From Eledone cirrhosa (lineage: Eukaryota), in NCBI GenBank assembly GCA_964016885.1, contig OZ024746.1, positions 17,856,001 to 17,920,000 of the forward strand: a DNA stretch of 64,000 nucleotides. Direction: 5' to 3'. Shown here piece by piece: positions 18,744-60,343 of this stretch; the first letter of the stretch is position 1, and every line of letters begins with the position of its first letter. A model generated the notes under the pieces. The model made no database searches and was not told the DNA's origin. It was given only the letters and a program-made list of their open reading frames with translations. Both the position numbers and the translations under genes were made by a program.

Positions 18744-19402
18744 ATATTTATTAAAATAACAGATTAAAGTTTAAGCAAAGAATCGCTGCTTTCACCCTTA
18801 ACGGGATCTTCTGAAACTAACAAAGTCAATCTGTAAACGCAGAACTGGATATTTCAAAAAACGTTGCAACCGGAGGAAGACAGGAAGACGATACTTTGGT
18901 TCGTGGTAACGTTCGCTGGCAAAGAACGGGAAAAAACGAATAACATGTCATTAATAGGAGCGGTGAAAAACAATTACGCGCAAAGACAAAACCACGTTTA
19001 TGGTATAAAGGAGGTCGTAGACTAATGTTCTCTTAAGTGGTGCATAGAGACGTTCTCTGGCAATGAACGAAAAAACGAAGATAATAAGTCATATGTGGAG
19101 CGTGGAGAACAATAGCACGCAAAGACAAAACCACGTAAATGGTATAGCAGAAATCGTAGACTAAAATTCTAACTAGGAGACCAAATGAATCTCACGTTTT
19201 TTGAAATATCCAGTTCTGCGTTTACAGATTGACTTTGTTAGTTTCAGAAGATCCCGTTAAGGGTGAAAGCAGCGATTCTTTGCTTAAACTTTAATCTGTT
19301 ATTTTAATAAATATTTGCTCTATGGTTCTTATATATTTGATATATATTTTCCTTATCGAGCCCTCTTTGGATTTTAGTCTTCAATTTTATTATTATTACT
19401 AT
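18744..19402. mobile_element. Hammerhead palindrome (PLE-like) with tandem-duplicated spacer
   Basis: Arms 18744-18864 / 19194-19314; the spacer holds a diverged direct repeat of period 140; tail 19315-19402; flanked by (TA)n. Internally deleted copy at 20566-20685. Confidence 0.8.
19240..19290 (+). ncRNA. Type I hammerhead ribozyme-like motif, U4A core variant
   Basis: AGTTT-CAGAAGA-tCCCgttaaGGGt-GAAA-GCA(gcgattctt)TGC-T-T-AAACT; all three stems pair. Confidence 0.55.
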
Positions 19403-19839: not shown

Positions 19840-20028
19840 ACAAAGGAGTTGTGGTAAGGAACCAGATGGACCATAACGCACCAGAGTACTCAATACTTAG
19901 TGTAGTAGAGTGGAAAATAGGAAAAAGTAAGACCCCGACGGCAGAGCTCAAGCCGTTTCGACGGCTATTTCTGGAAATAGCCGTCGAAACGGCTTGAGCT
20001 CTGCCGTCGGGGTCATACTTTTTCCTAT
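19839..20028. mobile_element. Short palindromic element (family A) in (TA)n
   Basis: Tail 19839-19916; arms 19917-19971 / 19974-20028. Relatives at 20699-20832, 58858-59054, 21103-21200, 59067-59102 and 4467-4550. Confidence 0.85.
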
Positions 20029-20850
20029 ATATATAGATATATATAATTATGAAGGAGAACAGAAGGGGACCCATAGTGAAATAAGGTACTCAATACATTA
20101 GTAGAGAAGATCCATATATATTTCATATAGAGATGACTTCTACAGGATTAAAACTGTTTCTTAGGGGTAGAGAAAGTGGGGGGGGGGGGTTATAGAAGAA
20201 GGAGGATGAGGAGGAATGTCATAACATCTAGTTGGTCAGTTTTTTTTATTGAAGAATATACTGGAGTGAGCTAGGATACTCACACACATATGTATATGAT
20301 GATGATGATGATGATGATGATATATATATATTATATACATGACACAATTCAATGTCAGTGACCAAGCTGCCGAAGTGTGATAAAACTGTTTTGACACTTT
20401 ATAATATATGATACTAGTGAGAACTAAACAAACTTTAATTTAACATATTTTGGTGTTTTTAAATGTTTAACATACCAACTCTTCACTGATGCAATTATTC
20501 TTTCCATTATAACACATGAACTCAGATCAAGTTGATATATATATATATACATATATATATATATTAATTTATTAAAATAACAGATTAAAGTTTAAGCAAA
20601 GAATCGCTGCTTTCACCCTTAACGGGATCTTCTGAAACTAACAGCCCTCTTTGGATTTTAGTCTTCAAATTTATTATTATTACTATATATATATATATAA
20701 CAAAGGAAGTGTGGTAAGGAACCAGATGGACCATAACGCACCAGAGTACTCAATACTTAGGGTAGTAGAGTGGGTAATAGGAAAATGTTCAAGACGCCGA
20801 CGGCAGAGCTCAAGCCATTTCGACGGCTATTTCTATATATATATATATAT

Positions 20851-21083
20851 AGGTAGTACACTGGAAGGTAATATCTGTAGTGGTAGAGCACTCAGTACAT
20901 GGGACGAGTTAGGTAGAAGTGGTTACACAACAGTTAGTTCACCATACCGAGAACAATTGTTTCACCTTAGCGGATCCTCAGCTCGTAATGGACATATAAC
21001 CATGTCCATTACGAGCTGAGGATCTGCTAAGGTGAAACAATTGTTCTCGGTATGGTGAACTAACTGTTGTGTAACCACTTCTA
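20851..21083. mobile_element. Hammerhead palindrome (PLE-like) in (TA)n
   Basis: Tail 20851-20913; arms 20914-20995 / 21002-21083 (one mismatch seen); 6-bp spacer. Confidence 0.85.
21006..21055 (+). ncRNA. Minimal type I hammerhead ribozyme
   Basis: ccatta CGAG-CTGAGGA-tctgctaaggt-GAAA-CAATTG-T-T-CTCG gtatgg: palindromic stem III, stem I with internal loop. Mirrored on the minus strand in the left arm. Confidence 0.7.
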
Positions 21084-35382: not shown

Positions 35383-35984
35383 ATAAATGTAATCTGAGTT
35401 TTTCGATTTTTAATAACATTCGATTTGTTTGCAATTATGCAAACAAGCCTCGTTTTTAAAGCCATGTCAGTAGAATGAACACTTCATTCTTGCTCTTGTG
35501 TTGGCATGTAAACAGAACTGCAGACACTAATGTTTCTGGGTATCACGCTTCATCAGTACAGCTCACTGTTTACCTGCCAACTGTCAGAGATATTGAAAAT
35601 ATATGCTATTTTCTAAAATATACAGTGACTGACCAGCCGGATTTGCATATTAGCAGACTGTCTGATCAGTCAGATCTGCATATTAGGAGATCTACTGATC
35701 AGCCAGATTTGCATGTCAGCAGACTGGCCAGTCAGTTTCCTGTATACGAGCGATAAATGGTTGGCTTTGCCAAATTCAAAAATTTGGCAGGTGAACAGCG
35801 AGCTCTACTGATGAAGAGTGATAACCAGAAACGTTAGTGTCTGCAGTTCTGTTTACATGCCAACACAAGAGCAAGAATGAAGGGTTCATTCTACTGACAT
35901 GGCTTTAAAAATGAAGCTTGTTTGCCTAATTGCAAACGAATCGAATGTTATTATTAATATTCGAAAAACTCAGATTACATTTAT
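35383..35984. mobile_element. Hammerhead palindrome (PLE-like), diverged arms
   Basis: Arms 35383-35580 / 35784-35984; spacer has three ~33-bp repeats; the right end abuts (TA)n. Confidence 0.85.
35791..35856 (+). ncRNA. Type I hammerhead ribozyme with GUC cleavage triplet
   Basis: gtgaacagc gagct(c/g)ta-CTGATGA-agagtgataacca-GAAA-CG ttag TG-T-C-tgcagttctgtttac. Long stem I; stem II degenerate in both arms. Confidence 0.6.
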
Positions 35985-38990: not shown

Positions 38991-39273
38991 AGTAGAGTGT
39001 GTGTGTTTATGAATGTATGTGTGTGCATGTGTAGGCTCAGACATGGCTACATGGTTTAGTTTTAGGTTCACTTTCACTGTATGGCAATGTTTTCTACTAC
39101 AGCCTTAGGTTGACTAACACATTGTGAATGAAATTGGGTTGGCGTAAAATGTGTAGAAGTTCATCGTTTTATATATATATATCAAAAGAGATCAATATAT
39201 AATATAGCAATCATGCAGTTCAATGAGAGAAACCACATATCTAATATTTTGCAGAGAACAATATAATCAGTTA

Positions 39274-39307
<34 letters not shown>

Positions 39308-39308
<1 letters not shown>

Positions 39309-39779
39309 TTTTGAGTTTATGTTGGTTGTATACCAACACCCCAGTATGCAGGCTGGAGCACTCGACGAAGTGCGCAGGTTGGTTTGGTTACTCCGGAGTA
39401 GTGTAAAATAAAGTTAAATAAAAGTCAAATGATTAAAATTTAGCTTTGTTTATTACTGCTATATATATTTCAGTGACAGCCATCTTTGGCTGTGACCTCT
39501 TCAGGCAGTTTGAATTAGTATGGTATAGACAAGTACATATGTTGTTTAGGTGACCACCACCAACATGGCTACATGGTTTAGTTTTAGGTTCACTTTCACT
39601 GTATGGCAAATGTTTTCTACTACAGCCTTAGGTTGACTAACACATTGTACTTGTCTATACCATACTAATTCAAACTGCCTGAAGAGGTCACAGCCAAAGA
39701 TGGCTGTCACTGAAATATATATAGCAGTAATAAACGAAGCTAAATTTTAATCATTTGACTTTTATTTAACTTTATTTTA
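39308..39779. mobile_element. Hammerhead palindrome (PLE-like) with locally templated spacer
   Basis: Tail 39308-39403; arms 39404-39537 / 39646-39779; flanked by (TA)n(GA)n and (TA)n. Confidence 0.88.
39674..39728 (+). ncRNA. Minimal type I hammerhead ribozyme
   Basis: ACTGC-CTGAAGA-GGTcACAGCCA aaga TGGCTGTcACT-GAAA-TATATA-T-A-GCAGT, immediately followed by AATAAA. Confidence 0.8.
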
Positions 39780-40309
39780 TATATATATATATATATATAA
39801 TCAGGTTAATATATATACATACATATATATAAAGCCAGAACAATATCACAAGGTGTTGTCCTGATGCTCTAACAGTTCTGGTAGTTCACTGTCCTACACT
39901 TGTGCTCTATTTATTAACCTTGAAAAAAATGAAAGGCAAAATTGACCTTGACAGAATTTTAACTTGAAGCAGAGAGAACCAGAACTAAATATTCTTTGTT
40001 TAGTACTGAAAAAATTAATTGAAACCAAAAATATTAATCGAAAGGTTTTTCTAATTTAGATCACCTATTGTTGATTGATTTGAAACTTGTTTTACAGGTC
40101 AGTGAAAAACTTGTTTCACCAAATTTCGATCAAGGTTTTTTTTTTATAGTTTTTCTTCTCATAGTAAATTTTATCTGAATGTAAACCAGAACAGATAATA
40201 GCCTACTTAGTTTAACAGGTTTTTTAGTACATCTGTAGCTAAGTCGTCACCTAATTTAACTATGACTATGTCTAGTTTTAGTACATCTGTACCTATCTCT
40301 GTCACCCAC

Positions 40310-43300
40310 CTGCTGGACCTTGGTGGTGGTCACCTTTAGTTGAGGTAGTCATTGTCACCAGCTAGACCTTGGTGGTGGTCACCTTTAGTTGAGGTAGTCA
40401 CTGTCAACAGCTGGACCTTGGTGGTCACCTTTAGTTGAGGTAGTCATTGTCACTAGCTAGACCTTGGTGGTGGTCACCTTTAGTTGAGGTAGTCATTGTC
40501 ACTAGCTAGACCTTGGTGGTGGTCACCTTTAGTTGAGGTAGTCACTGTCAACAGCTGGACCTTGGTGGTGGTCACCTTTAGTTGAGGTAGTCACTGTCAA
40601 CAGCTGGACCTTGGTGGTCACCTTTAGTTGAGGTAGTCACTGTCAACAGCTGGACCTTGGTGGTGGTCACCTTTAGTTGAGGTAGTCACTGTCAACAGCT
40701 GGACCTTGGTGGTGGTCACCTTTAGTTGAGGTAGTCACTGTCAACAGCTGGACCTTGGTGGTGGTCACCTTTAGTTGAGGTAGTCACTGTCAACAGCAGG
40801 ACCTTGGTGGTGGTCACCTTTAGTTGAGGTAGTCACTGTCAACAGCTGGACCTTGGTGGTGGTCACCTTTAGTTGAGGTAGTCACTGTCAACAGCTGGAC
40901 CTTGGTGGTGGTCACCTTTAGTTGAGGTAGTCACTGTCAACAGCTGGACCTTGGTGGTGGTCACCTTTAGTTGAGGTAGTCATTGTCACTAGCTAGACCT
41001 TGGTGGTGGTCACCTTTAGTTGAGGTAGTCACTGTCAACAGCTGGACCTTGGTGGTGGTCACCTTTAGTTGAGGTAGTCATTGTCACCAGCTGGACCTTG
41101 GTGGTGGTCACCTTTAGTTGAGGTAGTCACTGTCAACAGCTGGACCTTGGTGGTGGTCACCTTTAGTTGAGGTAGTCACTGTCAACAGCTGGACCTTGGT
41201 GGTGGTCACCTTTAGTTGAGGTAGTCACTGTCAACAGCTGGACCTTGGTGGTGGTCACCTTTAGTTGAGGTAGTCACTGTCACCAGCTGGACCTTGGTGG
41301 TGGTCACCTTTAGTTGAGGTAGTCACTGTCAACAGCTGGACCTTGGTGGTGGTCACCTTTAGTTGAGGTAGTCATTGTCACTAGCTGGACCTTGGTGGTG
41401 GTCACCTTTAGTTGAGGTAGTCACTGTCAACAGCTGGACCTTGGTGGTGGTCACCTTTAGTTGAGGTAGTCACTGTCAACAGCTGGACCTTGGTGGTGGT
41501 CACCTTTAGTTGAGGTAGTCATTGTCAACAGCAGGACCTTGGTGGTGGTCACCTTTAGTTGAGGTAGTCACTGTCAACAGCTGGACCTTGGTGGTGGTCA
41601 CCTTTAGTTGAGGTAGTCACTGTCAACAGCTAGACCTTGGTGGTGGTCACCTTTAGTTGAGGTAGTCATTGTCACTAGCTAGACCTTGGTGGTGGTCACC
41701 TTTAGTTGAGGTAGTCATTGTCACTAGCTGGACCTTGGTGGTGGTCACCTTTAGTTGAGGTAGTCAATGTCAACAGCAGGACCTTGGTGGTGGTCACCTT
41801 TAGTTGAGGTAGTCACTGTCAACAGCTGGACCTTGGTGGTGGTCACCTTTAGTTGAGGTAGTCACTGTCAACAGCTGGACCTTGGTGGTGGTCACCTTTA
41901 GTTGAGGTAGTCAATGTCAACAGCTGGACCTTGGTGGTGGTCACCTTTAGTTGAGGTAGTCACTGTCAACAGCTGGACCTTGGTGGTGGTCACCTTTAGT
42001 TGAGGTAGTCACTGTCAACAGCTGGACCTTGGTGGTGGTCACCTTTAGTTGAGGTAGTCATTGTCACCAGCTGGACCTTGGTGGTGGTCACCTTTAGTTG
42101 AGGTAGTCATTGTCAACAGCTGGACCTTGGTGGTGGTCACCTTTAGTTGAGGTAGTCATTGTCACCAGCTGGACCTTGGTGGTGGTCACCTTTAGTTGAG
42201 GTAGTCACTGTCAACAGCTGGACCTTGGTGGTGGTCACCTTTAGTTGAGGTAGTCATTGTCACTAGCTAGACCATGGTGGTGGTCACCTTTAGTTGAGGT
42301 AGTCACTGTCAACAGCTGGACCTTGGTGCTGGTCACCTTTAGTTGAGGTAGTCACTGTCAACAGCTGGACCTTGGTGGTGGTCACCTTTAGTTGAGGTAG
42401 TCATTGTCACTAGCTAGACCTTGGTGGTGGTCACCTTTAGTTGAGGTAGTCACTGTCAACAGCTGGACCTTGGTGGTGGTCACCTTTAGTTGAGGTAGTC
42501 AATGTCAACAGCAGGACCTTGGTGGTGGTCACCTTTAGTTGAGGTAGTCATTGTCAACAGCTGGACCTTGGTGGTGGTCACCTTTAGTTGAGGTAGTCAC
42601 TGTCAACAGCTGGACCTTGGTGGTGGTCACCTTTAGTTGAGGTAGTCACTGTCAACAGCTGGACCTTGGTGGTGGTCACCTTTAGTTGAGGTAGTCACTG
42701 TCAACAGCTGTACCTTGGTGGTGGTCACCTTTAGTTGAGGTAGTCACTGTCAACAGCTGGACCTTGGTGGTGGTCACCTTTAGTTGAGGTAGTCACTGTC
42801 AACAGCTAGACCTTGGTGGTGGTCACCTTTAGTTGAGGTAGTCAATGTCAACAGCAGGACCTTGGTGGTGGTCACCTTTAGTTGAGGTAGTCAATGTCAA
42901 CAGCAGGACCTTGGTGGTGGTCACCTTTAGTTGAGGTAGTCATTGTCAACAGCTGGACCTTGGTGGTGGTCACCTTTAGTTGAGGTAGTCACTGTCAACA
43001 GCTGGACCTTGGTGGTGGTCACCTTTAGTTGAGGTAGTCACTGTCAACAGCTGGACCTTGGTGGTGGTCACCTTTAGTTGAGGTAGTCACTGTCAACAGC
43101 TGGACCTTGGTGGTGGTCACCTTTAGTTGAGGTAGTCACTGTCAACAGCTGGACCTTGGTGGTGGTCACCTTTAGTTGAGGTAGTCACTGTCAACAGCTA
43201 GACCTTGGTGGTGGTCACCTTTAGTTGAGGTAGTCAATGTCAACAGCAGGACCTTGGTGGTGGTCACCTTCAGTTGAGGTAGTCATTGTCAACAGCTGGA

Positions 43301-43610
43301 CCTTGGTGGTGGTCACCTTTAGTTGAGGTAGTCACTGTCAACAGCTGGACCTTGGTGGTGGTCACCTTTAGTTGAGGTAGTCACTGTCAACAGCTGGACC
43401 TTGGTGGTGGTCACCTTTAGTTGAGGTAGTCAATGTCAACAGCAGGACCTTGGTGTTGGTCACCTTTAGTTGAGGTAGTCATTGTCACCAGCTAGACCTT
43501 GGTGGTGGTCACCTTTAGTTGAGGTAGTCATTGTCACCAGCTAGACCTTGGTGGTGGTCACCTTTAGTTGAGGTAGTCATTGTCAACAGCTGGACCTTGG
43601 TGGAGGTGAC
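40310..43610. repeat. 49-bp minisatellite, ~67 units
   Basis: Unit gctggaccttggtggtggtcacctttagttgaggtagtcactgtcaaca (starts 41041, 41090). Variants concentrated in one ~15-bp segment. Confidence 0.97.
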
Positions 43611-58857: not shown

Positions 58858-59054
58858 AACGAGGGAGTTGTGGTAAGGAACCAGATGGACCATAACACAC
58901 CAGAGTACTCAAATCTTAGGGTAGTAGAGTGGGTAATAGGAAAATGTATGACCCCGACGGCAGAGCTCAAGTCGTTTCGACGGCTATTTCAGGAGTCTAG
59001 AAATAGCCATCGAAACGGCTTGAGCTCTGCCGTCGGGGTCATACATTTTCCTAT
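58858..59054. mobile_element. Short palindromic element (family A)
   Basis: Tail 58858-58935; arms 58936-58990 / 59000-59054. Sits at the RTE tail/(TA) junction. Confidence 0.85.
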
Positions 59055-59195: not shown

Positions 59196-59753
59196 CGTTT
59201 CTGAATTTGTTTAGCAAGATTCTTTATCTGAAAACGTGTGTTGAAACTGATATTGTTATACTTTGGGAGGGTCATGTTGCCAATAAGAAACACACGCACC
59301 AGTTACTTTCACTCCAATTTATTATAAATTAAATTTATAAATTTAAGAATTTATAAATTTCCGGTTGGTTGGTTGGTTCCATAACCGGACGGTTGTTCAT
59401 GTATTGTCAAAGTTCTTTCGTCACACATTCTGTGACCTCTTCAGTGACTGGGGATTCTTTTCTTTGTTGGTTGTGCCTCTCCTTTGTTCTGTCCTACGCC
59501 ATCAGAAAATGGGCGTAGGACAGAACAAAGGAGAGGCACAAAAACAAAGAATAGAATCCCCAGTCACTGAAGAGGTCACAGAATGTGTGACGAAAGAACT
59601 TTGACAATACATGAACAACCGTCCGGTTATGGAACCAACCAACCAACCGGAAATTTATAAATTCTTAAATTTATAAATTTAATTTATAATAAATTGGAGT
59701 GAAAGCAACTGGTGCGTGTGTTTCTTATTGGCAACATGACCCTCCCAAAGCAT

Positions 59754-59761
<8 letters not shown>
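59194..59761. mobile_element. Hammerhead palindrome (PLE-like) in (TA)n
   Basis: Tail 59194-59249; arms 59250-59500 / 59512-59761. Confidence 0.9.
59563..59605 (+). ncRNA. Minimal type I hammerhead ribozyme
   Basis: GTCA-CTGAAGA-g-GTCACA gaatg TGTGAC-GAAA-GaaC-T-T-TGAC. Confidence 0.75.
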
Positions 59762-59802: not shown

Positions 59803-60334
59803 GATAAATCTACCAAGAGTTTACGGTAGTGTCCAATCTGTATGAAGAACTCAATGTATTCCGGATATCATGGAAAGAAGAGATGTAATGAAAAACCACT
59901 TTCGGTGAAAGATAAACGGTATACAGAGTCAAGATAAAATATTAAACAAATAATGAATAAACAATTCCTTATATTAAACAAAAAAAGTTCATTATTTAAC
60001 GATCGTTTCTAGGATATATATGTGTTAGAATTGGTATGCATATTCAACAGATCTATGTACAAAATTATACAAAATTATACAAATTATCAAGATTAAATAT
60101 ACATACCAAACACATATATACGCCGTCTTCAGAAATAATTATTTCTGAAGACGGCGTATATATGTGTTTGGTATGTATATTTAATCTTGATAATTTGTAT
60201 AATTTTGTATAATTTTGTACATAGATCTGTTGAATATGCATACCAATTCTAACACATATATATCCTAGAAACGATCGTTAAATAATGAACTTTTTTTGTT
60301 TAATATAAGGAATTGTTTATTCATTATTTGTTTA

Positions 60335-60343
<9 letters not shown>
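59800..60343. mobile_element. 410-bp spacerless palindrome plus tail in (TA)n
   Basis: Arms 59934-60138 / 60139-60343 with no mismatch seen; tail 59800-59933. Confidence 0.9.
60138..60286 (+). ncRNA. Type I hammerhead ribozyme with 116-nt stem II domain
   Basis: ATTATTT-CTGAAGA-[60152-60267 long imperfect hairpin]-GAAA-CGATCG-T-T-AAATAAT. Confidence 0.7.

What the first reader, a model, noticed from the sequence alone, without database searches (positions are those of the whole stretch)
39538..39648. Palindrome spacer is a patchwork copied from DNA on both sides of the locus
Seen: 39563-39648 duplicates 39041-39125 (part of a diverged local SINE, one extra A). 39548-39563 (aggtgaccaccaccaa) is the reverse complement of 16 bp of the 49-bp array starting ~750 bp downstream. 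TGT overlaps at the arm junction. Established: locally templated inserts with microhomology are a signature of polymerase-theta end joining. Inference: the two arms were joined in situ, so the palindrome was built at this site and did not transpose as a unit.
Basis: partly seen in the sequence, partly recalled or inferred. Interest (0 to 1): 0.75.

Follow-up and report, generated by a model that had tools for sequence, protein, structure and literature searches.

The report
Flank-copied patch in Penelope palindrome junction
The middle of this DNA palindrome is a patchwork copied from neighbouring DNA on both sides, a rare scar likely left when two cut-short copies of a Penelope-type jumping gene were stitched together on the spot; it is a very readable example of a known kind of repair scar, not a new system.

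Summary
The arms are 5'-truncated ends of a Hydra-clade Penelope-like retrotransposon (PLE), head to head in a TA tract. The left copy runs 39308-39552, so 39538-39552 is element sequence and AGGTG is a second microhomology. The true insert is 93 nt (39553-39645), fully templated: 82 nt from a left-flank SINE relic (direct) and 11 nt from a right-flank array (inverted), with overlaps of 5, 1 and 3 nt. Both sources are local: the 16-mer has two other genomic sites and the left junction is unique. Of 171 head-to-head junctions examined, 164 pair a tailed with a tail-less arm and 158 differ at the centre, so joins are made on site. Flank-copied patches are rare: 1 of 170 other junctions. 'Polymerase-theta signature' is only partly met: the tract is too long and its templates too distant for canonical theta insertions, and the element's own reverse transcriptase is a live rival. 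The scan earlier reported such PLE palindromes in this genome and one flank-copied PLE junction in another genome. Ordinary class, modest mechanistic value.

The parts
39308..39552 (-). Left copy: 5'-truncated end of a Hydra-clade PLE, tailed form (about -47 to +198 relative to the hammerhead core)
   Evidence: 243 of 245 identical to family copy L035; family context
39308..39403 (-). One-sided 96-nt tail, present on one arm only
   Evidence: tailed/tail-less pairing in 164 of 171 junctions
39455..39509 (-). Type I hammerhead-like motif in the left copy (activity untested)
   Evidence: motif scan
39548..39552 (+). AGGTG microhomology shared by the left copy and the array template; inferred final join
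39553..39563 (+). 11-nt insert, inverted copy of the 49-bp array; its last A is shared with the SINE copy
39563..39648 (+). Direct copy of 39041-39125 with one extra A; TGT shared with the right copy
39646..39779 (+). Right copy: 5'-truncated PLE end, tail-less form (-33 to +100), followed by (TA)n
39674..39728 (+). Type I hammerhead-like motif in the right copy; stems I and II fold, stem III is a short TATATA (activity untested)
   Evidence: not detected by Rfam
39041..39125 (+). Left-flank template, part of a diverged SINE-like relic
40312..43607 (+). 49-bp tandem array (67 units); right-flank template of the 16-mer, whose match is almost confined to this array
39264..39307 (.). Left half of the TA-rich target; its TAATCAG-TTAATATATATA recurs at 39798-39817 with one extra G (possible target-site duplication, uncertain)
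   Evidence: sequence
39780..39831 (.). Right half of the TA-rich target

Best explanation
The palindrome is two truncated copies of a Hydra-clade Penelope-like retrotransposon joined head to head in a TA tract, and its 93-nt centre is copied from both local flanks, likely because the free 3' end of one new cDNA hopped between exposed flank strands during insertion before host polymerase-theta-type end joining sealed the gap. Shown: element identity, tailed/tail-less arms, the templates, the overlaps and the uniqueness of the junction. Inferred steps: (1) the GIY-YIG nuclease cuts both strands; (2) each 3' end primes a cDNA, one from each reverse-transcription start site, usually on the same RNA; (3) both flanks become single-stranded for several hundred nt; (4) the tail-less arm's end primes at TGT on the opposite flank and copies about 83 nt (direct repeat, one A slipped), re-primes on its own strand in the array and copies 10-15 nt (inverted repeat), then anneals through AGGTG to the other cDNA. 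Odds: built on site about 0.95; at insertion time about 0.8; theta as the polymerase about 0.5.
For: [quoted passage not shown] On-site joining: 164 of 171 junctions are tailed plus tail-less, 158 of 171 centres are distinct, and in 94 of 164 each arm holds sequence the other lacks; 77 of 83 have TA tracts at both ends. One template per insertion: arm mismatch is 1.4% within loci against 3.3% between loci (57 pairs). PMC11167929 shows a PLE protein cleaving and extending both strands from two start sites in vitro. Theta-like features: 73 of 171 centres overlap by microhomology (no chance control run); 24 of 30 inserts of 10-130 nt match an arm within 60 nt of the join (no shuffle control); iterative short repeats occur (L052, L232). 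Here a direct and an inverted insert coexist and the longest overlap is at the inferred last join, as described for theta insertions (PMC7165422). A second flank-copied patch, L232/L272, has a 23-mer found only at its junction and 800 nt into its own flank, with 0 of 60 swapped flanks reaching that length.
Against: Tract length (82-86 nt) and template distance (183-268 and at least 540 nt) fall outside the canonical theta definition. L132 carries a 33-38-nt patch from element sequence downstream of the tail that neither arm holds, so an RNA-copying enzyme does switch templates at these joins. The strand model rests on 3 templates in 2 loci; agreement on the tail-less arm would arise by chance one time in four. 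Sequence ages cannot separate insertion-time from later repair (left copy 2 differences in 245, insert 1 indel in 86). The left junction has no read support here. No polymerase-theta gene was looked for in this genome.
Confidence: 0.48

Rival explanations
1. Same timing and geometry, but the element's own reverse transcriptase made the patch by jumping from its RNA onto flank DNA and back, with only the final ligation left to the host.
For: L132, L084 and L219 show element-derived patchworks, one from sequence only the RNA could supply. L1 ORF2p extends 5-nt primers on DNA templates, is highly processive and template-jumps (PMC10830420), which suits an 83-nt tract. L1 insertions carry templated genomic inserts (22 cases among about 3,600; bioRxiv 10.1101/2024.08.27.596794), about the 1 in 170 seen here.
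Against: The L1 templates lie within 15 bp of the site, not hundreds of nt away. DNA-templated jumping was not among the PLE activities in the parts of PMC11167929 that I read. The short iterative arm-templated inserts look theta-like.
Confidence: 0.3
2. An ordinary PLE palindrome inserted first; later its hairpin tip broke, was trimmed on both arms and was repaired with flank-templated synthesis (theta-type or MMBIR/fork-stalling template switching).
For: Both arms stop well inside the family's usual 5' end near -122. Multi-template, microhomology-primed inserts are described for MMBIR (PMC8421209). Palindrome fragility is recalled knowledge.
Against: Templates are farther from the tip (427 and 756 nt) than from the target ends (183 and 540 nt), and the arms next to the tip were not copied here. 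Short arms are common in the family without any flank patch.
Confidence: 0.17
3. The spacer is an assembly or read-chimera artefact.
For: No listed contig spans the left junction. Palindromes beside TA tracts are hard to assemble (PMC8557442).
Against: A run X4 contig carries the extra A and the SINE-to-arm join exactly (possibly the assembly's own sample). Base-precise microhomologies, the family-typical arm asymmetry and a second independent case are not expected of a chimera.
Confidence: 0.03
4. The arm-plus-spacer unit moved here ready-made, as a MITE-like element.
For: 5 of 138 junctions share the same perfect TCATATGA centre, so some centres recur.
Against: This spacer and junction exist nowhere else and derive from this locus's flanks. 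The ends are asymmetric rather than terminal inverted repeats.
Confidence: 0.01

Closest known systems
Hydra clade of C-terminal EN+ Penelope-like elements, with inverted 5'-truncated copy and one-sided tail (PMC8557442, passages and supplement rows seen; lists Hydra-1_Obim)
   Same: RWK, DKT, CxCX5C, CxxC and CxH motifs, no second cysteine between the GIY and YIG words, hammerhead motif, (TA)n target, head-to-head truncated copy, tail at one end.
   Different: Tail is about 96-98 nt against the 30-40 bp described. No flank-templated centre appears in the passages read. Not aligned to Hydra-1_Obim.
Polymerase-theta templated insertions, TINS (PMC7165422, passages)
   Same: Microhomology-primed, multi-round, direct plus inverted repeats, longest overlap at the inferred last join.
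   Different: 82-86-nt tract and templates 183 to over 540 nt away, against within 50 bp and rarely over 10 bp per round.
L1 twin priming and L1 templated insertions (bioRxiv 10.1101/2024.08.27.596794, passages and most of one section; PMC11702581, passages)
   Same: Two primed cDNAs joined by microhomology; rare capture of local genomic DNA under 250 bp at a similar rate.
   Different: Both PLE arms copy the same 3' region from two fixed start sites, giving a palindrome; the templates are far more distant and on both sides.
Self-priming model for head-to-head Penelope palindromes (PMC3846280, passages)
   Same: Same head-to-head structure; short palindromic centres are also seen here.
   Different: 94 of 164 non-nested arm pairs and flank-copied centres fit two separately primed cDNAs better than a single fold-back.
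MMBIR templated insertions (PMC8421209, passages)
   Same: Several templates, both orientations, short microhomologies.
   Different: That search was limited to templates within 100 bp and is not tied to a retrotransposon junction.

Membership tests
EN+ Penelope-like element | RT followed by C-terminal GIY-YIG in longer family copies | tested here: met
   YRDD-containing RT-like pieces by eye (no Pfam RT hit); GIY-YIG hit E 7e-4, below the curated cut-off; the copies read are frameshifted
EN+ Penelope-like element | Partial tandem (pLTR) and inverted 5'-truncated copy | tested here: met
   L053, L054 tandems; 171 head-to-head junctions
EN+ Penelope-like element | One-sided tail | tested here: met
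   164 of 171; about 96-98 nt, longer than the 30-40 bp described
EN+ Penelope-like element | Hammerhead motif in the pLTR | tested here: met
   (motif and fold only; Rfam silent)
Hydra clade | RWK, DKT, CxCX5C, CxxC, CxH; CCHH absent | tested here: met
   Read by eye translations against the description
Hydra clade | (TA)n targeting | tested here: met
   77 of 83 with TA tracts at both ends
Hydra clade | RT phylogenetic placement | not tested
   No tree built
Canonical theta TINS | At least 5 bp identical to flanking DNA, direct or inverted | tested here: met
Canonical theta TINS | Template within 50 bp of the break | tested here: not met
   183-268 and at least 540 nt from the target ends; 427 and 756 nt from the join
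Canonical theta TINS | Short synthesis tracts (3-30 bp, rarely over 10 per round) | tested here: not met
   82-86 nt for the SINE copy; the 11-16-nt array copy fits
Canonical theta TINS | Dependence on POLQ | not testable with these tools
   Needs genetics
MITE-like unit | Same arm-plus-spacer unit at many loci with symmetric ends | tested here: not met

The most novel reading that the evidence does not exclude
Penelope insertion passes through a double-strand break that is extended at both ends from one RNA and opened for 0.3-0.8 kb on both sides, and rare flank patches record which strands were exposed and which cDNA end (the tail-less one) searched for a partner. Collected genome-wide, such patches would decide between two-ended priming and the published self-priming model for Penelope palindromes.
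Probability: 0.35. Interest if true: 0.6.

Novelty: new member of a known kind. Interest (0 to 1): 0.36.

Why it matters
How Penelope-like elements form their inverted structures is stated as open in PMC8557442. A centre built from this locus's own two flanks is direct evidence that the join was made on the chromosome with both ends free, which favours two-ended priming over fold-back. The family has at least 5,718 exact core matches, so a rate near 1 in 170 would give an estimated 10-20 such patches, enough to test the strand rule. As a single scar it has no sign of function, and similar inserts are known for L1.

Tried and rejected
Rfam scan of the window: no hammerhead family hit, only TA-rich miRNA-model matches below gathering scores. 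DNA search with the arm found nothing because common words are skipped. Narrow read-laying on the junction listed only unrelated SINE relatives; runs X1, X2 (small shares) and the RAD-seq run X6 gave nothing on this locus's spacer, and no empty-site allele was found. Spacers of five other window palindromes showed no flank match above 14 nt outside themselves. Apparent flank inserts rejected: L054 and L099 (a dispersed repeat, 86-93% to local copies), L276 (dispersed repeat, 94% to another locus), L048 (TA-simple), L174 (96% older duplication). 36 single copies showed no convincing flank-templated 5' junction. The array patch as an RNA-templated piece: the 10-mer occurs in the element's CCA run, but that leaves the 16-nt fit unexplained, so it was rejected. 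PMC13580325 and bioRxiv 10.64898/2026.07.22.740005 passages added nothing on junctions. Literature searches for a PLE flank-templated junction found none in the held library; supplements other than two rows-level look-ups in PMC8557442 were not read, and bioRxiv supplements are closed.

Full report
Observation. 39563-39648 repeats 39041-39125 with one extra A, and 39548-39563 is the reverse complement of a 16-mer in 62 units of the 49-bp array. Genome-wide, the spacer's best other match is the local copy at 99%, then 90% over 42 nt and 78% over 72 nt. The 16-mer has only 2 sites outside this locus in 3.0 Gb, and the left junction 33-mer is unique. The source looks like a decayed SINE: 3 relatives at 69-90% in 1.3 Mb.

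What the arms are. Each arm carries a type I hammerhead-like motif. Its 37-nt core has 4,238 exact matches and a one-base variant 1,480 more. [quoted passage not shown] This is the description of the Hydra clade of Penelope-like elements in PMC8557442 (passages); its supplement lists an octopus member, to which I did not align. The same paper describes an inverted 5'-truncated copy and a one-sided tail as typical.

Corrected anatomy. Against family copies, the left element spans 39308-39552 (243 of 245 identical to L035), including a 96-nt tail, and the right spans 39646-39779. So 39538-39552 is element, and the foreign centre is 39553-39645 (93 nt) with no untemplated base. The overlaps are AGGTG (element/array), A (array/SINE) and TGT (SINE/element).

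Family survey. Loci were chosen by exact motif matches and not by junction type; 351 stretches, some overlapping, gave 171 unique head-to-head junctions including this one. 164 pair a tailed with a tail-less arm; 158 differ in breakpoints; 73 overlap, 11 are blunt, 42 have 1-9 nt and 45 have 10 nt or more between the arms. In 94 of 164 pairs each arm holds sequence the other lacks. In the first 83 pairs, 77 had TA tracts at both ends, and 24 shared a flank word against 6-15 in swapped controls. Arms differ by 1.4% within loci and 3.3% between loci (57 pairs with enough overlap); 25 of 328 polymorphic-site comparisons were discordant, 18 of them at the site that the motif selected for, and one locus (L133) looks like two templates. 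PMC11167929 (first two of four parts read) shows a PLE protein cutting and extending both strands from two start sites, which explains the asymmetry. Joining on site is therefore the rule for this family. Against a strict reading, 5 of 138 junctions share one perfect palindromic centre, and non-nested arms could also come from fold-back followed by uneven deletion.

How common are flank patches. Of 50 inserts of 8 nt or more, tested against own and 60 swapped flanks, two passed: this one and L232/L272. The latter has arm-derived repeats and then a 23-mer (29 nt with one mismatch) found only at its junction and 800 nt into its flank. The rate among unselected junctions is 1 of 170 (95% interval 0.015-3.2%). 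It is a lower bound, as the median flank held was 1.9 kb. Most inserts are copied from the arms: 24 of 30 of 10-130 nt in the 138-junction set (no shuffle control).

Mechanism. If the 5' strands at a two-ended cut are removed, the exposed strands are the top strand on the left and the bottom strand on the right. Both templates here fit these strands if the tail-less arm's cDNA end did the copying: across to the left flank (direct), back onto its own strand (inverted), then a 5-nt anneal to the other cDNA. L232 also fits the tail-less arm priming on the opposite flank. This is inference from 3 templates, and the agreement has a one-in-four chance of being accidental. Direct plus inverted inserts and a stronger last overlap are theta-like, but PMC7165422 (passages) sets templates within 50 bp and tracts rarely over 10 bp; here they are 183-268 and at least 540 nt from the element's ends and one is 82-86 nt long. 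The element's reverse transcriptase is the main rival: L132 has a patch from sequence beyond the tail that neither arm holds, and L1 ORF2p primes on short DNA pairings and template-jumps (PMC10830420, passages). Later breakage of the hairpin tip remains possible; ages do not separate the cases.

Read support. One contig of run X4 matches 39563-39675 exactly but joins upstream to 39040 across the 47 shared bases. I read this as graph mis-threading; a deletion allele is not excluded. It supports the right junction only, falls 4 nt short of the tool's bridging rule, and may come from the assembly's own sample. One search added nothing.

Comparison and verdict. Templated local inserts are known at L1 insertions (22 of about 3,600, under 250 bp, within 15 bp; bioRxiv 10.1101/2024.08.27.596794; also PMC11702581). 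PMC3846280 (passages) explains head-to-head Penelope palindromes by self-priming and reports host-DNA capture in other positions. Searches found no paper on flank-templated PLE centres in the held library. Earlier notes of this scan report the PLE palindromes in this genome and one flank-copied PLE junction elsewhere; they are unchecked AI notes, read after my own identification. The finding is real, the in-situ inference is right, the theta label is unproven, and the class is known. Interest 0.36.

Noticed in passing
window 59250-59761, 59934-60343, 35406-35958, 18744-19314, 20914-21083, 1959-2191: Further long palindromes beside TA tracts, several with hammerhead-like words in the arms; probably other PLE families. 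Their spacers show no flank templating.
   Followed up: partly
family position about -122 (e.g. L035, L040, L049): Strong 5'-end hot spot at a TCATATGA palindrome; may mark the RNA's 5' end.
   Followed up: partly
L232 1281-1345 and window 39538-39648: Both flank-patched junctions have arm ends near -47 and -33, either side of an ACATATGT palindrome; coincidence or a fragile site.
   Followed up: no
L132 2968-3000; L084; L219: Junction patches copied from distant parts of the element, one from beyond the tail, pointing to template switching on the RNA.
   Followed up: partly
L133: The two arms differ at 4 of 8 subfamily sites besides the selected one, suggesting two different RNA templates in one insertion.
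   Followed up: partly
window 39040-39563, run X4: A contig skips 522 nt between the two direct repeats; graph artefact or a real deletion allele.
   Followed up: no
window 40312-43607: The 49-bp array appears confined to this locus, judged by one 16-mer; origin unknown.
   Followed up: partly
L054 2800-2985, L099 774-960: A 186-187-nt dispersed repeat sits inside or between PLE copies at an AAT-rich site; it also forms local clusters.
   Followed up: partly
window 19850-20040, 20700-20840, 58880-59050: Another small repeat that folds back at varying points beside TA tracts.
   Followed up: no
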